Origin: a virus
Direction: 5' to 3' (one strand)
DNA length: 64,000 nucleotides
Virus record (IMG/VR): IMGVR_UViG_3300017783_000001
Shown here: positions 6,874-46,805 of the stretch, in pieces
Numbering within the stretch: the first letter of the stretch is position 1
Layout: every line of letters begins with the position of its first letter
The notes under the pieces: generated by a model
Told to the model about the DNA's origin: nothing
Seen by the model: only the letters and a program-made list of their open reading frames with translations
The model's database searches: none
Position numbers and translations under genes: made by a program

Positions 6874-7667
6874 TGAGTTGGGTCTTTCATCATCATATCT
6901 GGTATCTTATCATCTTGTAAATCTAATTTAACAGGATTGATATTTGCTTGTGGTTGATTATGTTCTAGTACATAGTTACCACTTATACTAATTCTTTCGT
7001 ATTGTTTCCAATAAGGTGCTACTTGATGTTCTAATGCAGCTGGGAAAACAAACATCAAACCTTTATATGGTTTAACAGCAAAACTATTCATTTGTAATTG
7101 AGTTATCTTTTCACCATAATGAAATACTAGTTGACCTGCTGAATTGGCGTTAGTTGTAGGTACGCCTTCTGTAAATATCTTATCATCTATATCACCAAAC
7201 ACAACAAAACTAAAAAGACCACCGTGGTCGTGTAAAGGATTAAAATCACCTGCTTGTTGAAAGTTAATCCATAGTTGTTGTAATCGTAATGCACCCATAC
7301 CACCAGATTGTCCCATCATCATTTTTGATATGTTAGGCCAACCTTCACCATAGTTAGATTGTAGTATTTCAAAAAATTCAAATACTTTTTGTACGATTGC
7401 TTGGTCTGCTTGATTTCTAATTTTGTTATTACCGTTATTAAACGGATAAAGAACGCTAGTTCCTTGCTTCATATTGCCAGCAAGTTGATGTCTATGGTCT
7501 AATTTTTTATCGTCTCTTGTACGCTGACCTTCTTCAATCAACATATCAACAATCTTTTCGTCTAGTTCACAACGATAGACTGGTGGACCAAATGGATATA
7601 ATACTTCGCCATTAATAGACGAGTGAACCATTTGTGGTAATACGGTTTTATCTCTATACTTTGTCAT
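6870..7667 (-). CDS. 2OG-Fe(II) oxygenase family protein
   Basis: WIN...FNPLHDH (HxH), FPAALEHQV, RISISGN; start moved to SD-preceded ATG 7667; sigma70 promoter at 7688-7716. Confidence 0.85.
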   Translation of the reverse strand: MTKYRDKTVLPQMVHSSINGEVLYPFGPPVYRCELDEKIVDMLIEEGQRTRDDKKLDHRHQLAGNMKQGTSVLYPFNNGNNKIRNQADQAIVQKVFEFFEILQSNYGEGWPNISKMMMGQSGGMGALRLQQLWINFQQAGDFNPLHDHGGLFSFVVFGDIDDKIFTEGVPTTNANSAGQLVFHYGEKITQLQMNSFAVKPYKGLMFVFPAALEHQVAPYWKQYERISISGNYVLEHNQPQANINPVKLDLQDDKIPDMMMKDPTQ

Positions 7668-7701
7668 TCTGTTTTCCTTACACACTTATTATACAATAAG
7701 T

Positions 7702-7974
7702 TTAATCTAGTGTCAATATGCTGTGTTCTTTTAATGTGTGTAAAAGAAACTCATTTTTTAATTGTAATAATTTATTTTGTTTTTCTAATATTGCAATCTT
7801 CTTATCTAAATCACTTGTTCCTCTTTCATCATCTAATATCATTTGTAATTGTTTCTTTAACAACTCCATTTGATACTGATAATCTTTACTTTCAGGAACA
7901 CGATTATAGAGGTCTGTTTCTTGTTCTACTCTATCATAATTCATTTTATACTCCAAAACTTTCTCCACAACCAC
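7702..7974 (-). CDS. Coiled-coil hypothetical protein
   Basis: Leu/Lys/Glu heptads; true start probably the second Met. Confidence 0.6.
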   Translation of the reverse strand: MVVEKVLEYKMNYDRVEQETDLYNRVPESKDYQYQMELLKKQLQMILDDERGTSDLDKKIAILEKQNKLLQLKNEFLLHTLKEHSILTLD

Positions 7975-8272
7975 AACTACTTGTTGCGTTGGGATTTTTT
8001 AATTCTAAAAATGACCCAAATATCTCCTTACGATATTCTATAGTCATACCTGCTAACATTAATATGCTAGACTTATCAACTAATAATGTAAAGTTATCGT
8101 GTAAGATAACCTCATCATTGTTGTCTGCTTCATCTTCAAACTTCCAGTCGTACTTAAAACCAGCACAACCACCACCTTTAACTTCTAAACGAACATATTT
8201 TTTGCTATGTTCTTTTGCTAAAGATTGTAAATGTGTTATTGCGTTATCTGTTAAGTTTATTAAATTACTCAT
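7946..8272 (-). CDS. iscA: A-type Fe-S carrier (IscA/SufA/HesB family)
   Basis: GGGCAGFKY and NPNATSSCGCGESF signatures. Confidence 0.95.
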   Translation of the reverse strand: MSNLINLTDNAITHLQSLAKEHSKKYVRLEVKGGGCAGFKYDWKFEDEADNNDEVILHDNFTLLVDKSSILMLAGMTIEYRKEIFGSFLELKNPNATSSCGCGESFGV

Positions 8273-8283
8273 ATTATTATTTA

Positions 8284-8301
8284 GGGGAGATTTAACTCCC
8301 C
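8284..8301 (-). terminator. GC-rich hairpin, possible terminator or processing site
   Basis: GGGGAG-6 nt-CTCCCC between 8309..8503 and iscA; no clear U tract. Confidence 0.45.
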
Positions 8302-8308
8302 CAAACTA

Positions 8309-8503
8309 TTACCAATTATCGGTAGATTTTATTACTTTATGTCCAAGTACTTTGCCTTTGTTAACACCATTGTTGATAGTGTAACCAGAAGTACCTTTAC
8401 CATTTATATCCACTTCTATACGAGAAGACGCAAGAGCCTTTTCTTTTCGCTCTATGTCTTTCTTCTTTCTATAAGTGGAGAGTAAATAAGTATGTCTATT
8501 CAT
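8309..8503 (-). CDS. Small basic protein downstream of the glutamine riboswitch
   Basis: 64 aa, AAGGAGG SD just 3' of the riboswitch. Confidence 0.8.
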   Translation of the reverse strand: MNRHTYLLSTYRKKKDIERKEKALASSRIEVDINGKGTSGYTINNGVNKGKVLGHKVIKSTDNW

Positions 8504-8526
8504 AACACCCTCCTTGATTAAAGTTA

Positions 8527-8579
8527 GGTGCGTTCCTTCAGGCGATTGCCTTACTTCCGACCATTGTTGGTTGAACGAA
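8527..8579 (-). ncRNA. Glutamine riboswitch (glnA RNA motif)
   Basis: UUCGUUCA-ACCAACAAUGGU-CGGAAGUA-AGGCAAUCGCCU-GAAGGAACGCACC: P1 CGUUC/GAACG, P2, E-loop and P3 of the glnA consensus. Confidence 0.88.
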
Positions 8580-8585
8580 TACTAA

Positions 8586-8593
8586 TATTTATA
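8586..8593 (-). promoter_or_regulatory. T4-type late promoter driving the riboswitch transcript
   Basis: Exact TATAAATA about 6 nt upstream of the riboswitch. Confidence 0.85.
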
Positions 8594-8696
8594 CAAGAGA
8601 CTTACATAAAACTAAACAAAGAGATAACATAGAGATTCGCCCCTATAACTCCGATACAAAGAGTCGCCCTCTCCCTGGTAAGATTAGTCTATGAGT

Positions 8697-8711
8697 GTTC
8701 TCTAAATGTTC
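8697..8711. promoter_or_regulatory. LexA-like box (GTTC-N7-GTTC)
   Basis: gttc tctaaat gttc in a non-coding region about 100 nt upstream of the promoter at 8815. Confidence 0.5.
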
Positions 8712-8814
8712 TCTATGTTTTTAAATGTGTCGCCACGCTGACTCTATAGCATTCTCTGGAGTTTTCACACACTTATGTATAAGATTGTCAAACGCTAGCG
8801 TAAAAAGAAAGTGC

Positions 8815-8843
8815 TTGACAAGTATCCGACAATGTAGTACAAT
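8815..8843 (+). promoter_or_regulatory. Sigma70-type promoter
   Basis: GTGC-TTGACA-N17-TACAAT. Confidence 0.8.
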
Positions 8844-8879
8844 AGACTTATAATAACCAATGAAAGGAAATACAACACT

Positions 8880-9071
8880 ATGGCGTATTATAATAATGAT
8901 GATGTAATGCAGAAGTTAGATGAAATCGCTAACGACATAATGAACCTATCTATAAGAGTGAATAAGATAGACGACTCTATCCCGAAAAAAAACTCCGAAA
9001 AAAATTCACAAAGTCAAAGCCTAGATAAATCACTAGGATCCACAGAAGACCCTTTGCTAGTTGAAATGTAA
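8880..9071 (+). CDS. Small hypothetical protein, counter-strand
   Basis: AAAGGA SD, own promoter, N-terminal coiled coil. Confidence 0.65.
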   Translation: MAYYNNDDVMQKLDEIANDIMNLSIRVNKIDDSIPKKNSEKNSQSQSLDKSLGSTEDPLLVEM

Positions 9072-9258
9072 AGAACAACCACCATACAGACTTAATAAGT
9101 TCTTTGTATGAGCGTCCTCCTGAAGTCGGCCGTTTCTTATATAGGTTAAATATCATAAAATATATTTAGTATAGTCTATTGCATTTATAGATTAAGAGCC
9201 AAGACCTGGATATAATAGGCCCTTTTAGCTACAGGTTTTTGAGAAGTCGGTAGGCCTT

Positions 9259-10317
9259 TTAGTTTAGATTGATTGTCTTGCCGGTCTTTGTGTTATCGCC
9301 TGTTACCGTTTCTGTACGAGTACCTGCGATTGTTTCACTATGCGAACCATCTACACTTAGCGTATAGTTACCACCTACTTTGAGGTTGTAATCACCACCT
9401 GCATTGACATTGACTTTACCTACTCTGGTCACTACATTGACATCGCCAGTATCTACTTGTATATTAAGGCTTGCATTAGCACCTACTTGTATATCATAGT
9501 GGTTGTTTAATGTAGCAGACTTGTTAATGTATATCTTATGGCGTCCGTCTATTGTTATATCACTATTGCCTTCTATGTAAGTCTTATCTGAACCAACGGC
9601 CATTCTATATGAGTGGCCTTTTATTATATTAATCTGATTACCGTCTGCTGTCCACTCTAGTGATGTACCTACCTTATGGCGAAAGTGTATTCGCTCAGCG
9701 GCCGGCGTATCGTCAAACTCTTGTATATGTCCACTTTCCGTTTCAGTTACCTTATTATATGGATACTGAGCAGCGTATGCAAGAGTCGGTTGTGACCAAG
9801 TATCTCCGTCAGACGCCGCCATTACACTATTGTCCGCATTGGTTCTGCTGTTAAAGTCAGCAGTCGCCACATCTTTTATTTCTGTATCTGTACGAATTAA
9901 GTTGACAAGAGACGGATTATCTGTTATACTAGACGCTAGCCTATTTGTATCTGTTTCATTAATATACTTAGGATAGATACCCGAGCCATCATAGCCTGCC
10001 TTTGAGTAATACCTTGAAGAATACTCGGTAGGCCTTCCTGGGAGTACGCCAAGAACAACTGGTTGTTGCGCCTGCTCTCCATCTCTAAAGAATCCGTGTA
10101 CCCAAGTTCCTTTTACCAAAAAGGTTGGCGACTGACCCAGGCCTGATATGCCTCCGGCAGTCGTAGGTAAAGCGCATTGTGCCCACGGCAAGTCTGCTGT
10201 AGGTAATGTGTAAATGTTATCACTATGGTAACCTAAACACCGTACTCGCACACGGCCAACCTTGTGTGGGTCTTGCCTGTCTTCAACTATTCCTGTAAAA
10301 TGTATATACTTGCTCAT
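9259..10317 (-). CDS. 5: Baseplate central spike gp5, no lysozyme domain
   Basis: GIVEDRQDP..GRVRVRC.G.H OB fold; YPYNKVTETESGHIQEFDDT; C-terminal V-x-G beta-helix repeats. Confidence 0.92.
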   Translation of the reverse strand: MSKYIHFTGIVEDRQDPHKVGRVRVRCLGYHSDNIYTLPTADLPWAQCALPTTAGGISGLGQSPTFLVKGTWVHGFFRDGEQAQQPVVLGVLPGRPTEYSSRYYSKAGYDGSGIYPKYINETDTNRLASSITDNPSLVNLIRTDTEIKDVATADFNSRTNADNSVMAASDGDTWSQPTLAYAAQYPYNKVTETESGHIQEFDDTPAAERIHFRHKVGTSLEWTADGNQINIIKGHSYRMAVGSDKTYIEGNSDITIDGRHKIYINKSATLNNHYDIQVGANASLNIQVDTGDVNVVTRVGKVNVNAGGDYNLKVGGNYTLSVDGSHSETIAGTRTETVTGDNTKTGKTINLN

Positions 10318-23711: not shown

Positions 23712-23920
23712 TATACAGGTAGTTCGCTTGTTTTAGGTAACAGATTTAACTTCTGACACTCTAAAGCAACCTTCTCTTTTAATGCTTTGTTAATTAATGG
23801 ACCGACCGTAGCTGTGTCAATCTCTCTTTCTTCGCAATAAAGAACGATAGCATCCATATAAGATGTTTTCTTCTCTTTTTTGAAGGCTTCTATTTCTAAA
23901 CTAAATTGTTTACTATTCAT
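23711..23920 (-). CDS. 33: Late transcription co-activator gp33
   Basis: FSLEIE, SYMDAIVLYCEE, LKEKV..E...LNLL......LPV. Confidence 0.9.
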   Translation of the reverse strand: MNSKQFSLEIEAFKKEKKTSYMDAIVLYCEEREIDTATVGPLINKALKEKVALECQKLNLLPKTSELPV

Positions 23921-24237: not shown

Positions 24238-24536
24238 GAAAACGAGAAGTTTCTGTTGCCAAGTACCTCTCAAACTCCGTTACCTATTAACTAGGCAGCA
24301 AGGGCAAAATTTGCTTCGCCATTTAAAATTGCGTTTGAGTTCGCCAACTATTAATCTCCAATGGGTCATCTGCGTCTGTCAATCCTAACACACCCCCCAT
24401 AAAAACACTAGCGATACTTACGCCACAGATATAACCAATACTTTAACATAGCAGTTCTCCTTCTACTAGTGTGTTTATGGTGGAGGTGTCGGGAGTTGCA
24501 CCCGAGTCCAGTCCGGTTCTTACACCACCATCAACA
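24238..24536 (-). ncRNA. ssrA: Circularly permuted two-piece tmRNA, alphaproteobacterial type
   Basis: Acceptor piece ends GGAC-UCGGG-UGCAACU-CCCGA-CACCUCC-ACCA (24478); coding piece starts GGGGGUG (24397) giving G3:U70; tag GEANFALAA* at 24320-24291 after UAAAU. Outer ends approximate. Confidence 0.93.
24408..24449 (-). CDS. Putative 13-aa peptide MLKYWLYLWRKYR in the tmRNA intervening segment
   Basis: AAGGAG SD, 7-nt spacer, ATG...TAG inside the intervening stem-loop. Confidence 0.5.
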   Translation of the reverse strand: MLKYWLYLWRKYR

Positions 24537-24537
24537 A

Positions 24538-24732
24538 TTAATCCTTTTTAATCTTATCGCAAGTATTCTCGTCAGCATAAAGACCAGTCTCTTTGTCGTA
24601 TAACCAAACATATGAGTATGCAATGCTATTGCCTTTCTCTATACATTTCTTACCGAAAGAAACTCTTGGTTCCTTTATACTACAAGCACTTATTAAACTT
24701 GCAATAAAAATAATACTAATCAGTTTGTACAT
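24538..24732 (-). CDS. Small lipoprotein
   Basis: Lipobox ISAC; two further Cys. Confidence 0.7.
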   Translation of the reverse strand: MYKLISIIFIASLISACSIKEPRVSFGKKCIEKGNSIAYSYVWLYDKETGLYADENTCDKIKKD

Positions 24733-45971: not shown

Positions 45972-46448
45972 CTATGATACTTTCATTAATTCTACAACTA
46001 ATGGGAAATTTCTTGCTAAAATGAAACCTATTACTATAGAACCACCGATTATTAAGTACTTCCACTTCTCTAGCATATTTACCTTTTCTCCTAGAGAGTT
46101 CTTAATACTTCGTATTTCGTTCATAATACGCTTTTCAGTCATATCTATATTATCTTTTAGTTGTCTATATCTCGCTTCAGTATCTTCTTGTCTGTCCTTT
46201 AACTTTGAGAAGATAATCTCATCTAATTTTTCTGCTTGGTTTAACTTTTCTTCGTGTACAGCTAACATTGATTTAATACCACTACTGATATTAGTTAACT
46301 TGTCAATCGCTGTGTCTAGTCTTTTATGTACCATATTGCTCTGTTGAAGTTCCGATTTCAACACCTCTATACTCGTACGGTTATCGTACACTTCTTTAGA
46401 TAGTGAAGTTATGGTTGCCCTTGTTTCACCGTTTCCTGTTGTAGACAT
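45972..46448 (-). CDS. Coiled-coil protein with C-terminal TM helix
   Basis: MLAVHEEKL, LEKWKYLIIGG. Confidence 0.75.
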   Translation of the reverse strand: MSTTGNGETRATITSLSKEVYDNRTSIEVLKSELQQSNMVHKRLDTAIDKLTNISSGIKSMLAVHEEKLNQAEKLDEIIFSKLKDRQEDTEARYRQLKDNIDMTEKRIMNEIRSIKNSLGEKVNMLEKWKYLIIGGSIVIGFILARNFPLVVELMKVS

Positions 46449-46472
46449 AGCGACTTATTCTCCCAAAGTCAA

Positions 46473-46805
46473 TTAACCCGCTAGCGGATTTTTTGCTTTT
46501 AATTTAAGTTCTTGGATTTGTAGTTTTAAGACTTCAATTTCTTTCTCGTTTACTTTTGTTTGTGTTTTGTTCTTTTGTACACTACCAGAAATATCAGCAG
46601 GTATATTACCTTCTAATTCTGTAATCTTAATTTCTAATGCTTTAATTGATTCTTGTAGAGGTGCAATATTAACACCTTTTCTTTCTTCTAATGCGTTCAT
46701 TTTAGTAGTCAATTCTCCGTATTTAACGAATCCACCACCAATAGCAACTACGGCTGCGATTAAAGCTGCCACACTTGCCAAGTTATCTTTTAATTGTTTT
46801 ATCAT
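46473..46805 (-). CDS. Membrane-anchored coiled-coil protein
   Basis: N-terminal TM helix; C-terminal NPLA. Confidence 0.75.
   Translation of the reverse strand: MIKQLKDNLASVAALIAAVVAIGGGFVKYGELTTKMNALEERKGVNIAPLQESIKALEIKITELEGNIPADISGSVQKNKTQTKVNEKEIEVLKLQIQELKLKAKNPLAG

What the first reader, a model, noticed from the sequence alone, without database searches (positions are those of the whole stretch)
8309..8593. Glutamine riboswitch transcribed from a phage late promoter and controlling a small basic protein
Seen: TATAAATA (8593-8586), then a complete glnA-type three-way junction (8579-8527), then CCUAACUUUAAUC-AAGGAGG-N5-ATG of a 64-aa Lys/Arg-rich ORF, followed by iscA and, further on, a 2OG-Fe(II) oxygenase and nfuA-like gene. 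Established: glnA-motif RNAs bind L-glutamine and in cyanobacteria switch on the glutamine synthetase inactivating factor IF17. Inference: the phage reads host nitrogen status late in infection; the protein could be a glutamine synthetase regulator or a lysis-timing factor in a non-cyanobacterial host.
Basis: partly seen in the sequence, partly recalled or inferred. Interest (0 to 1): 0.8.

Follow-up and report, generated by a model that had tools for sequence, protein, structure and literature searches.

The report
Phage late-gene glutamine riboswitch cassette
A marine T4-like phage carries a genuine glutamine-sensing RNA switch at the very start of a late transcript, most likely letting a 64-residue basic protein of unknown function be made only when host glutamine is high; such switches were already reported in related phages, but what they control was not worked out.

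Summary
Rfam's glutamine riboswitch model (RF01739) matches window 8527-8579(-) at 55.7 bits against a cut-off of 35. TATAAATA lies at 8593-8586, and AAGGAGG-N5-ATG starts a conserved 64-aa ORF (8309-8503). iscA, a 2OG-Fe(II) oxygenase and a NifU-like gene follow.

The phage is an uncultured relative of the SAR11 phages Mosig and HTVC008M. It encodes a gp33-like late coactivator.

The bases just after P1 (G8531, the linchpin C8530, then ACCU) pair with the Shine-Dalgarno region. This helix covaries across 99 phage leaders and has the same design as the cyanobacterial gifB switch. Glutamine therefore most likely turns translation on.

The cassette is widespread. At least 120 IMG/VR stretches carry the aptamer core, nearly always about 25 nt before a strong SD and a 16-65 aa basic ORF. 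These ORFs fall into several unrelated families, including IF17-like DUF4278. A late-promoter TAAATA motif lies 5-11 nt upstream in 67 of 110 leaders.

The window's protein (phrog_32989) has no detectable link to IF7/IF17, and its function is unknown. In other phages it is fused to, or lies directly after, SAM decarboxylase.

Glutamine riboswitches in pelagimyophages were published in 2022, but assigned to tmRNA control. Here the tmRNA is 16 kb away, and in Melnitz the aptamer precedes an unannotated 32-aa ORF.

The parts
8586..8593 (-). T4-type late promoter element TATAAATA. The predicted transcript start is about 6 nt downstream (near 8580), one base before the aptamer.
   Evidence: Sequence read. 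TAAATA ends 5-11 nt upstream of the aptamer in 67 of 110 unique phage leaders, against 2-4 in control windows. The window encodes a gp33-like late coactivator at 23714-23920(-). Homology of related RNA-library contigs stops exactly at 8593.
8527..8579 (-). Type-1 glutamine riboswitch aptamer (glnA motif). P1 pairs 8577-8573 with 8535-8531. The first hairpin spans 8571-8560 and the second 8550-8541. The conserved cores are CGGAAGUA and GAAGGAACGC.
   Evidence: RF01739 at 55.7 bits (cut-off 35), model positions 1-53 of 53. Both hairpin stems covary among 62 aligned phage leaders.
8505..8531 (-). Expression platform: a hairpin in which G8531, linchpin C8530 and ACCU (8529-8526) pair with GGGUGU (8510-8505), and CUU (8523-8521) pairs with AAG (8515-8513). 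It encloses the Shine-Dalgarno AAGGAGG (8515-8509).
   Evidence: MFE hairpin of -9.9 kcal/mol, z = -3.2. Blocking G8531 and C8530 weakens it from -9.4 to -5.5 kcal/mol. Compensatory tail/SD variants occur across 99 leaders, and 0 of 2000 permutations fold as well.
8309..8503 (-). Gene for a 64-aa basic protein (phrog_32989, called 'family A' here). It has a confident N-terminal helix (residues 3-27) followed by a Gly/Asn-rich tail with the conserved motif N-G-x-G-T-S-G-Y.
   Evidence: phrog_32989 at E 1.6e-10. 83 cluster representatives in 1.84 billion proteins. 356 viral stretches encode a relative. Substitutions by codon position are 625/532/1404. AlphaFold2 model.
8284..8302 (-). G+C-rich hairpin (GGGGAG, 6-nt loop, CUCCCC) 7 nt after the stop codon, with no U-tract. 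It is probably an RNA-stabilising or weak termination element that closes the cassette. Its 3' arm overlaps a CTAAATA motif (8284-8278) 5 nt before the iscA ATG.
   Evidence: Sequence read. The terminator scan did not call it because there is no T-run.

Best explanation
Window 8284-8593(-) is a self-contained late-gene cassette of a T4-like marine phage that probably infects SAR11 or another streamlined heterotroph. It works as follows.

1. The phage late transcription machinery starts an mRNA at about 8580, from TATAAATA. The mRNA therefore begins directly with a type-1 glutamine aptamer.
2. Without glutamine, the bases just 3' of P1 (G8531, linchpin C8530, ACCU) form a hairpin of about -9.5 kcal/mol with the Shine-Dalgarno region, and the AAGGAGG site is masked.
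3. With glutamine, P1 closes and the linchpin C is captured in a long-range pair with the conserved G of the CGGAAGUA core. This removes the two closing pairs of the hairpin and reorients the helix. The ribosome can then load, and the 64-aa basic protein is translated.

Step 1 is inferred from motif position. The competing hairpin in step 2 is shown by covariation. Step 3 is inferred from the cyanobacterial gifB riboswitch, which has the same design and is a proven glutamine ON switch.

The protein is a phage-specific micro-protein made of a helix plus a flexible tail. My best guess (about 30%) is that it is a small regulator acting on host nitrogen or polyamine metabolism. That would make it analogous to, but not homologous with, the IF7/IF17 factors that occupy the same slot in cyanobacteria and in other phage cassettes.
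For: - **Aptamer:** RF01739 at 55.7 bits with all conserved bases present. It is conserved directly upstream of the ORF in 8 of 8 close relatives and in 59-62 of the 79 best family-A loci that have at least 100 nt of upstream sequence.
- **Late promoter:** positional enrichment in 67 of 110 leaders, against 2-4 in controls. A gp33 homologue lies in the window.
- **Anti-SD helix:** hairpin of -9.9 kcal/mol, z = -3.2. 68 of 99 unique leaders pair 5/5. Compensatory variants include CACCU:GGGUG, CACUU:GAGUG, CACUU:AAGUG, CAUCU:AGAUG, CACUC:GAGUG, CUCUU:AGGAG and CGCCU:AGGUG. Native duplex energy is -4.78 against -3.69 +/- 0.10 for permuted tails, with 0 of 2000 permutations as low. Cyanobacterial gifB-type leaders show the equivalent GCCUC...GAGGC pairing.
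- **Precedent:** the gifB riboswitch raises translation with glutamine. Klahn et al. propose that the linchpin C and its neighbours mask the ribosome binding site until glutamine melts that helix (PMC6212724, sections 17 and 20).
- **Real gene:** third-codon-position excess, 83 representatives and 356 viral loci.
- **IF17-like ORFs in the same slot:** phage ORFs with the YRG motif match DUF4278 at 26-30 bits, against a cut-off of 25.3.
Against: - No experiment shows glutamine binding or regulation for this RNA.
- Nearest-neighbour folding still predicts the SD to be mostly paired after G8531 and C8530 are removed from the hairpin (-5.5 kcal/mol). Release must therefore depend on tertiary effects or on competition with the ribosome.
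- No transcript start could be shown. One oligo-dT RNA-library contig runs across the promoter (8417-8702).
- The host is not identified.
- The protein has no detectable similarity to IF7/IF17 or to any Pfam or NCBIfam family.
- About 17 of 79 relatives lack the aptamer, so the protein is not tied to glutamine control everywhere.
- Genomic contexts differ between phage types (iscA, speD, capsid genes, lysis genes) and point to no single function.
Confidence: 0.75

Rival explanations
1. The switch controls the whole downstream block (iscA, a 90-aa ORF, the 2OG-Fe(II) oxygenase, a 62-aa membrane ORF and the NifU-like gene), not only the 64-aa ORF. On this reading glutamine gates phage Fe-S and oxygenase auxiliary genes, through polarity, mRNA stability or coupled translation.
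For: All of these genes lie on the same strand with short gaps. The gene order famA-iscA-orf90-2OG-nfu is conserved in all close relatives. The hairpin after the ORF has no U-tract, so read-through is plausible. iscA neighbours family A in 26 of 112 loci.
Against: The platform is a translational SD mask specific to the small ORF. In more distant myophages iscA lies upstream of the aptamer, so the pairing with iscA is not directional. The same cassette occurs next to quite different genes (speD, capsid genes). A CTAAATA late-type motif sits directly before iscA.
Confidence: 0.15
2. The RNA is a glutamine OFF switch or is not regulatory. On this reading the hairpin forms in both states (or is stabilised by stacking on a closed P1), and the ORF is translated at a low constitutive level or is repressed by glutamine.
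For: Folding with P1 enforced and C8530 blocked still leaves the SD paired. The related glutamine-II class has its ribosome binding site inside the ligand-stabilised pseudoknot. That point comes from my recollection of PMC6698751, which appeared only in the hit list and was not read.
Against: The hairpin uses the last base of P1 and the linchpin C, so it cannot fully coexist with the bound fold. The same design in gifB is experimentally an ON switch. Strong conservation of every ligand-pocket consensus base argues against a decayed element.
Confidence: 0.08
3. The 64-aa protein works with S-adenosylmethionine decarboxylase (SpeD) in polyamine synthesis, rather than on glutamine synthetase.
For: Family A is fused to the C-terminus of an AdoMet_dc domain in three protein clusters, one of them seen on 9 contigs. 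A speD gene ends 40-150 nt before the aptamer in about 16 loci, and there the small ORF belongs to family A, B, C or D.
Against: No speD gene lies in this 64-kb window. Unrelated ORF families occupy the same slot after speD, which fits an insertion hot-spot as well as a functional link. Most family-A loci have no speD nearby (10 of 113).
Confidence: 0.15
4. As published for phage Melnitz, the riboswitch regulates the phage two-piece tmRNA (ssrA).
For: Buchholz et al. 2022 report the aptamer in the 3' part of the Melnitz ssrA annotation. This window also carries a two-piece tmRNA.
Against: In this window the tmRNA (24242-24585) is 16 kb from the aptamer. In Melnitz the aptamer (46398-46446) lies 3' of the tmRNA. 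It is followed by the same CACUU/GAGUG linker, an SD, and an unannotated 32-aa basic ORF that has homologues behind other phage aptamers. In Mosig the aptamer precedes the 51-aa gene Mosig_00116.
Confidence: 0.02

Closest known systems
Type-1 glutamine riboswitch of cyanobacterial gifB (IF17) leaders (Klahn et al. 2018, PMC6212724; structure by Ren et al. 2015)
   Same: It has the same aptamer family (RF01739) and the same conserved cores. It has the same platform logic: the linchpin C and the bases after P1 pair with the ribosome binding site. The target is a small basic regulatory protein, and the expected direction is glutamine ON.
   Different: The promoter is a phage late promoter, not an NtcA-controlled one. 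The host is probably not a cyanobacterium. The regulated protein has no DUF4278 domain and no detectable homology to IF17 or IF7.
Glutamine riboswitches reported in Melnitz (OM43 phage), Mosig (SAR11 phage) and pelagimyophage MAGs (Buchholz et al. 2022, PMC9004378)
   Same: It belongs to the same phage group, and the genome also carries a two-piece tmRNA and gp33. Presence of RF01739 in this group is therefore already known.
   Different: That paper assigns the switch to ssrA control and to speculative lysis timing. Here the target is a small ORF 25 nt downstream. In Melnitz and Mosig the aptamer likewise precedes small basic ORFs, of other families.
glnA-motif RNAs of marine heterotrophs (Weinberg et al. 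2010, PMC2864571)
   Same: They have the same aptamer. It was found in 60 of 61 genomes of one family of 0.9-1.6 Mb marine Alphaproteobacteria, and in SAR116 and SAR86 records.
   Different: The cellular copies are usually tandem and precede ammonium transporter, glutamine synthetase or porin-like genes. The phage copy is single and precedes a micro-protein. Family A was not found in 116 genomes of that alphaproteobacterial family.
Cyanophage non-coding RNA elements, including the glutamine riboswitch in T4-like cyanophages (mentioned in PMC9602691 and PMC9964418)
   Same: It is a phage-borne metabolite sensor in a T4-like genome, preceded by a late-promoter-like CTAAATA or TATAAATA motif.
   Different: Those papers only list its presence. 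I found no description of the small-ORF targets, the late-promoter arrangement or the speD adjacency in the searchable literature.

Membership tests
Glutamine riboswitch type 1 (glnA RNA motif, Rfam RF01739) | Covariance-model score at or above the curated gathering threshold over the full model | tested here: met
   55.7 bits against 35, E 1.5e-9, model positions 1-53 of 53, not truncated.
Glutamine riboswitch type 1 (glnA RNA motif, Rfam RF01739) | Three-helix junction (P1 plus two hairpins) with the conserved CGGAAGUA and GAAGGAACGC cores | tested here: met
   All upper-case consensus bases are matched. These bases are invariant in 62 aligned phage leaders, while both hairpin stems vary with compensation.
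Glutamine riboswitch type 1 (glnA RNA motif, Rfam RF01739) | Linchpin C directly after P1, available for the long-range G-C pair and shared with an expression platform | tested here: met
   C8530 follows P1. It is invariant at that position in the 62 aligned leaders and pairs with a G of the SD-region arm in 96 of 99 leaders. The tertiary pair itself cannot be tested here.
Glutamine riboswitch type 1 (glnA RNA motif, Rfam RF01739) | Selective binding of L-glutamine and a ligand-dependent change in expression | not testable with these tools
   This needs in-line probing or ITC, and reporter assays.
T4-type late promoter | TATAAATA at -10, no -35 element, in a phage that encodes the gp33/gp55 late machinery, placed before a late-expressed gene | tested here: inconclusive
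   The motif is present at 8593-8586. Its position is conserved across phage leaders, and a gp33 homologue lies in the window. However, gp55 was not sought, the motif is not enriched in the window as a whole, and no 5' end was mapped.
GS inactivating factors IF17 / IF17-like (DUF4278, PF14105) and IF7 | Sequence membership in DUF4278 (YRG repeats), or similarity to the IF7-type C-terminal region | tested here: not met
   There is no Pfam hit for the window protein or for any of 34 relatives. hhalign probability against five IF7-like cyanobacterial ORFs is 0.2%. Other phage cassettes do carry DUF4278 ORFs.
GS inactivating factors IF17 / IF17-like (DUF4278, PF14105) and IF7 | Binds and inhibits glutamine synthetase | not tested
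   No host GS was identified. This needs a biochemical assay.
EF-hand-like calcium-binding loop | Helix followed by D-x-[DN]-x-[DN]-G-x-[ILV]-x-x-x-E | tested here: not met
   Only weak PDB profile hits to calmodulin-type proteins (E 0.09-0.9). Loop position 8 is Ser or Thr and position 12 is not Glu. The window protein has Lys at position 5.

The most novel reading that the evidence does not exclude
Marine phages of both cyanobacteria and streamlined heterotrophs may share an unrecognised class of cassette: a late promoter, a glutamine aptamer, and a glutamine-gated micro-protein. The micro-proteins fall into at least six unrelated families, one of them IF17-like. On this reading they reprogram host nitrogen or polyamine flow at the end of infection. 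Family A (this window) would then be the first functional analogue of a glutamine-synthetase inactivating factor, or a SpeD partner, outside cyanobacteria.
Probability: 0.2. Interest if true: 0.8.

Novelty: new variant of a known kind. Interest (0 to 1): 0.55.

Why it matters
Riboswitches are rare in phages, and this one gives the phage a direct read-out of host glutamine, the central nitrogen-status signal. If the cassette works as inferred, abundant ocean phages of SAR11-type hosts make a dedicated micro-protein only in nitrogen-replete cells late in infection. This opens a testable link between phage infection and marine nitrogen cycling. It would also correct the published assignment of these switches to tmRNA control. 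Finally, it points to several families of unannotated 16-65 aa phage genes that standard annotation misses.

Tried and rejected
- **Own genome:** the window's assembly is not held. The nearest virus record, G001 (26 kb), has no RF01739 match.
- **Phage isolate searches:** blastn of 7600-9300 against phage isolates found nothing. tblastn of the 64-aa protein found only Pelagibacter phage HTVC168P gp47, at 45% identity. That gene has no aptamer upstream at E < 0.1. tblastn with two other family-A members found nothing.
- **Family searches:** Pfam, NCBIfam and the ESM Atlas feature search gave no informative family. A PDB profile search gave only sub-threshold EF-hand hits.
- **Structure:** the AlphaFold2 model is confident only for helix 3-27 (mean pLDDT 72), so I ran no fold search.
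- **IF7 comparison:** hhalign against IF7-like ORFs gave probability 0.2%.
- **Complex prediction:** a prediction of SpeD (two copies) with family A from the same phage locus returned 'no answer' (score 0.09, mark 0.32). This is no evidence for or against binding.
- **Locus search:** The search for related loci with the broad alignment A3 failed for lack of a conserved block. The narrower A4 worked.
- **Cellular homologues:** family A was not found in 116 genomes of one alphaproteobacterial family. There was no positive control, so this shows little.
- **Metatranscriptomes:** only assembled contigs were available. They cover the cassette but cannot show a start, strand or expression level. One contig crosses the promoter.
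- **Host family:** the tools would not name the riboswitch-rich alphaproteobacterial family. Whether SAR11 proper carries the aptamer was therefore not tested here. One paper reports it in a Pelagibacter MAG island (PMC12379486).
- **Terminator:** the consensus scan did not call the hairpin at 8284-8302.

Full report
**1. What is in the sequence**

On the minus strand, the region reads in this order:
- TATAAATA at 8593-8586.
- Seven bases later, the aptamer at 8579-8527.
- A 26-nt linker that holds AAGGAGG (8515-8509).
- A 5-nt spacer, then ATG at 8503-8501.
- A 64-codon ORF ending at 8309.
- A GGGGAG/CUCCCC hairpin at 8302-8284.
- The iscA start codon at 8272.

Rfam's glutamine riboswitch model RF01739 matches 8527-8579 at 55.7 bits (gathering score 35, E 1.5e-9). 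The match covers the whole model, and every highly conserved consensus base is present.

The ORF product has pI 10.1, with 14 Lys+Arg against 6 Asp+Glu. Downstream on the same strand lie:
- iscA (PF01521).
- A 90-aa ORF.
- A 2OG-Fe(II) oxygenase (PF13759).
- A 62-aa hydrophobic ORF.
- A NifU-like gene (PF01106).

Upstream lies a gp5-type baseplate hub.

**2. What genome this is**

The gp5 protein is 54% identical to that of Pelagibacter phage Mosig and 37% identical to that of HTVC008M. The OM43 phage Melnitz is also related. The window also holds a two-piece tmRNA of the alphaproteobacterial type at 24242-24585. A homologue of the Melnitz gp33 late-transcription coactivator lies at 23714-23920.

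This is an uncultured T4-like marine myophage of the pelagimyophage/Melnitz group. The host is probably SAR11 or a similar streamlined heterotroph, but this is not shown. The exact stretch occurs in seawater and viral metagenomes from at least ten studies.

**3. The aptamer-ORF pair is conserved and the ORF is a real gene**

Nine IMG/VR loci encode close homologues (82-98% identity). All eight with enough upstream sequence carry RF01739 directly before the ORF.

A profile search of 1.84 billion representative proteins found 83 clusters, mostly 60-100 aa. IMG/VR holds 356 stretches that encode a relative.

Among 74 pairs of 64-codon homologues, differences fall 625, 532 and 1404 at codon positions 1, 2 and 3. 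This is the signature of a translated gene.

Of the 80 best loci, 59 match my relaxed aptamer pattern and three more keep the 3' aptamer core. About 17 lack the aptamer altogether. Instead they carry a sigma-70-like TGTTATAAT and a remnant GTTCACCTAA, which looks like an aptamer deletion.

The family is phrog_32989. It has no Pfam or NCBIfam match. AlphaFold2 gives a confident helix for residues 3-27 and a poorly ordered Gly/Asn-rich tail. That tail contains the nearly invariant V31, G37, T38, Y41, K44 and G46.

**4. The promoter**

TATAAATA alone is not above chance in this AT-rich window, with 14 matches against 11.8 expected, although 13 of the 14 lie on the coding strand. Its position is what matters.

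In 110 unique first-aptamer leaders from viral contigs, TAAATA ends 5-11 nt before the CGUUCA of P1 in 67. Control windows 30 and 50 nt further upstream hold it in only 2 and 4. The commonest forms are TATAAATA (27) and ACTAAATA (20). With T4 spacing, the transcript would begin at about 8580, one base before the aptamer.

Related contigs from RNA libraries lose similarity to the window exactly at 8593. This marks the upstream edge of the conserved cassette. Those contigs cannot show a transcript start.

**5. How the switch most likely works**

RNAfold places a hairpin just after P1:
- G8531, C8530, A8529, C8528, C8527 and U8526 pair with U8505, G8506, U8507, G8508, G8509 and G8510.
- C8523-U8521 pair with G8513-A8515.
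- Five of the seven SD bases are therefore paired.
- The hairpin energy is -9.9 kcal/mol, z = -3.2.

I collected 99 unique phage leaders. In 68 of them, the five bases that start at the linchpin C pair perfectly with a pentamer inside the 18 nt before the start codon. Many compensatory combinations occur:

| Tail:SD pairing | Leaders |
|---|---|
| CACCU:GGGUG | 26 |
| CACUU:GAGUG | 9 |
| CACUU:AAGUG | 7 |
| CAUCU:AGAUG | 5 |
| CACUC:GAGUG | 4 |
| CUCUU:AGGAG | 4 |
| CGCCU:AGGUG | 2 |

Native tail/SD duplex energy averages -4.78 kcal/mol. With tails permuted among leaders it averages -3.69 +/- 0.10, and none of 2000 permutations is as low. Cyanobacterial gifB-type leaders show the equivalent GCCUC...GAGGC.

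For gifB, glutamine raises translation. Klahn et al. propose that the linchpin C and its neighbours mask the ribosome binding site until ligand binding melts that helix.

In the window, the hairpin uses the last base of P1 and the linchpin C, so it cannot fully coexist with the bound fold. Taking those two bases away lowers its stability from -9.4 to -5.5 kcal/mol. A purely secondary-structure model still leaves the SD paired. Full release therefore has to come from tertiary reorientation or from competition with the ribosome. That step is inferred.

**6. The cassette is a general design in marine phages**

Nearly every true aptamer is followed, 20-35 nt later, by a strong SD and a 16-65 aa basic ORF. 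The ORFs fall into several unrelated families:
- Family A, as in this window.
- A 50-51 aa family ending in DPR[LM]Q[GK]I. This includes Mosig_00116, which lies directly behind the Mosig aptamer.
- A 32-aa family beginning MKTKNNWQL.
- Trp/Cys-containing 28-38 aa families.
- YRG-repeat ORFs that match DUF4278, the IF17 domain, at 26-30 bits against a cut-off of 25.3.

Some loci carry tandem aptamers.

In Melnitz, the aptamer (46398-46446) lies at the 3' edge of the ssrA annotation. It is followed by the CACUU/GAGUG linker, an SD and an unannotated 32-aa ORF. The published reading that the switch controls ssrA is therefore probably wrong. In this window the tmRNA is 16 kb away.

**7. Clues to the protein's function**

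None of these clues is decisive.

(a) *SAM decarboxylase.* Three protein clusters fuse family A to the C-terminus of an AdoMet_dc domain, one of them seen on nine contigs. In about 16 loci a speD gene ends 40-150 nt before the aptamer. This holds whichever ORF family follows, and for two different speD types. This window has no speD.

(b) *iscA.* iscA neighbours family A in 26 of 112 loci. It lies downstream in close relatives and upstream in distant ones.

(c) *Lysis genes.* In T7-like podoviruses, including HTVC168P, the aptamer-less homologue directly precedes a membrane protein (phrog_20984). In one metagenomic podovirus locus (L270) an endolysin lies a few hundred bases further downstream.

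(d) *EF-hand resemblance.* The helix plus D-x-N-G-N-G-T-S-G-Y loop faintly resembles an EF-hand. It fails positions 8 and 12 of that motif and scores only E 0.09-0.9.

(e) *IF7.* There is no similarity to IF7-like ORFs.

(f) *Cellular homologues.* Family A was not found in 116 genomes of a riboswitch-rich alphaproteobacterial family.

**8. Cellular context**

The same aptamer occurs in 60 of 61 sampled genomes of one family of 0.9-1.6 Mb marine Alphaproteobacteria. There it is usually tandem and precedes ammonium transporter and glutamine synthetase genes. It also occurs in SAR116 and SAR86 records. Glutamine sensing by this RNA is therefore native to streamlined marine heterotrophs, not only to cyanobacteria. 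This contrasts with the 2018 statement that it is exclusive to cyanobacterial genomes.

**9. Verdict**

The feature is real and well formed. The riboswitch class, its mechanism and its presence in this phage group are known. Three things appear to be new relative to the literature I could search:
- The target is a phage-specific micro-protein family unrelated to IF17.
- The switch sits at the 5' end of a late transcript.
- This arrangement is a widespread cassette with interchangeable small ORFs.

I rate it a new variant of a known kind, of moderate interest.

Noticed in passing
L345:999-1168 (Melnitz MZ577097.1, about 46398-46567): The Melnitz glutamine aptamer is followed by an SD and an unannotated 32-aa basic ORF on the plus strand. 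The record instead annotates a minus-strand ORF (gene 89) there. The published 'riboswitch controls ssrA' reading probably needs revising.
   Followed up: yes
L252:3001-3585; L265:2048-2692; L024, L110, L055, L074, L125 and others: SAM decarboxylase (speD, PF02675) is either fused to family A or ends 40-150 nt before a glutamine aptamer plus small ORF. This holds for four unrelated small-ORF families and two speD types.
   Followed up: partly
window 24242-24585(-) and 23714-23920(-): A two-piece (permuted) tmRNA of the alphaproteobacterial type is followed by a gp33-like late-transcription coactivator. Melnitz has the same order, but here there is no aptamer between the two.
   Followed up: partly
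window 8278-8284(-): A CTAAATA late-promoter-like motif overlaps the 3' arm of the post-ORF hairpin and ends 5 nt before the iscA ATG. iscA has no Shine-Dalgarno sequence. If the motif is used, the iscA mRNA would be nearly leaderless.
   Followed up: no
window 8594-9258: This roughly 660-nt stretch between gp5 and the cassette has no convincing gene. Its length varies among close relatives (about 800-1440 nt between gp5 and the small ORF), and related contigs diverge exactly at 8593.
   Followed up: partly
L304, L306, L317, L320, L332, L334, L335 (upstream of the match at 2501): These family-A genes lack the aptamer. They retain a GTTCACCTAA remnant and sit behind a TGTTATAAT extended -10-like element. 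This looks like an aptamer deletion that leaves constitutive or early expression.
   Followed up: partly
L145, L153, L163, L195 and genomes G002-G066: Tandem glutamine aptamers lie upstream of ammonium transporter and glutamine synthetase genes in small-genome marine Alphaproteobacteria (60 of 61 genomes of one family), and in SAR116. SAR86 and other marine gammaproteobacterial records carry single aptamers (tandem in one record) before a glutamine-synthetase-like ORF and porin-like genes.
   Followed up: partly
L001:2465-3024 (HTVC168P gp47-gp48); L270:938-2311: In T7-like pelagiphages the family-A gene overlaps or abuts a phrog_20984 membrane protein. In the metagenomic locus L270 an endolysin lies a few hundred bases further downstream.
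   Followed up: partly
L019, L023, L030, L044, L053: One leader class has a different platform. The linker GGCUAA can pair with the 3' strand of the second aptamer hairpin (UUAGCC), and the ORF is only 16-17 aa (M-x-E-V-T-L-V-Y-R-G-V-K-Y).
   Followed up: no
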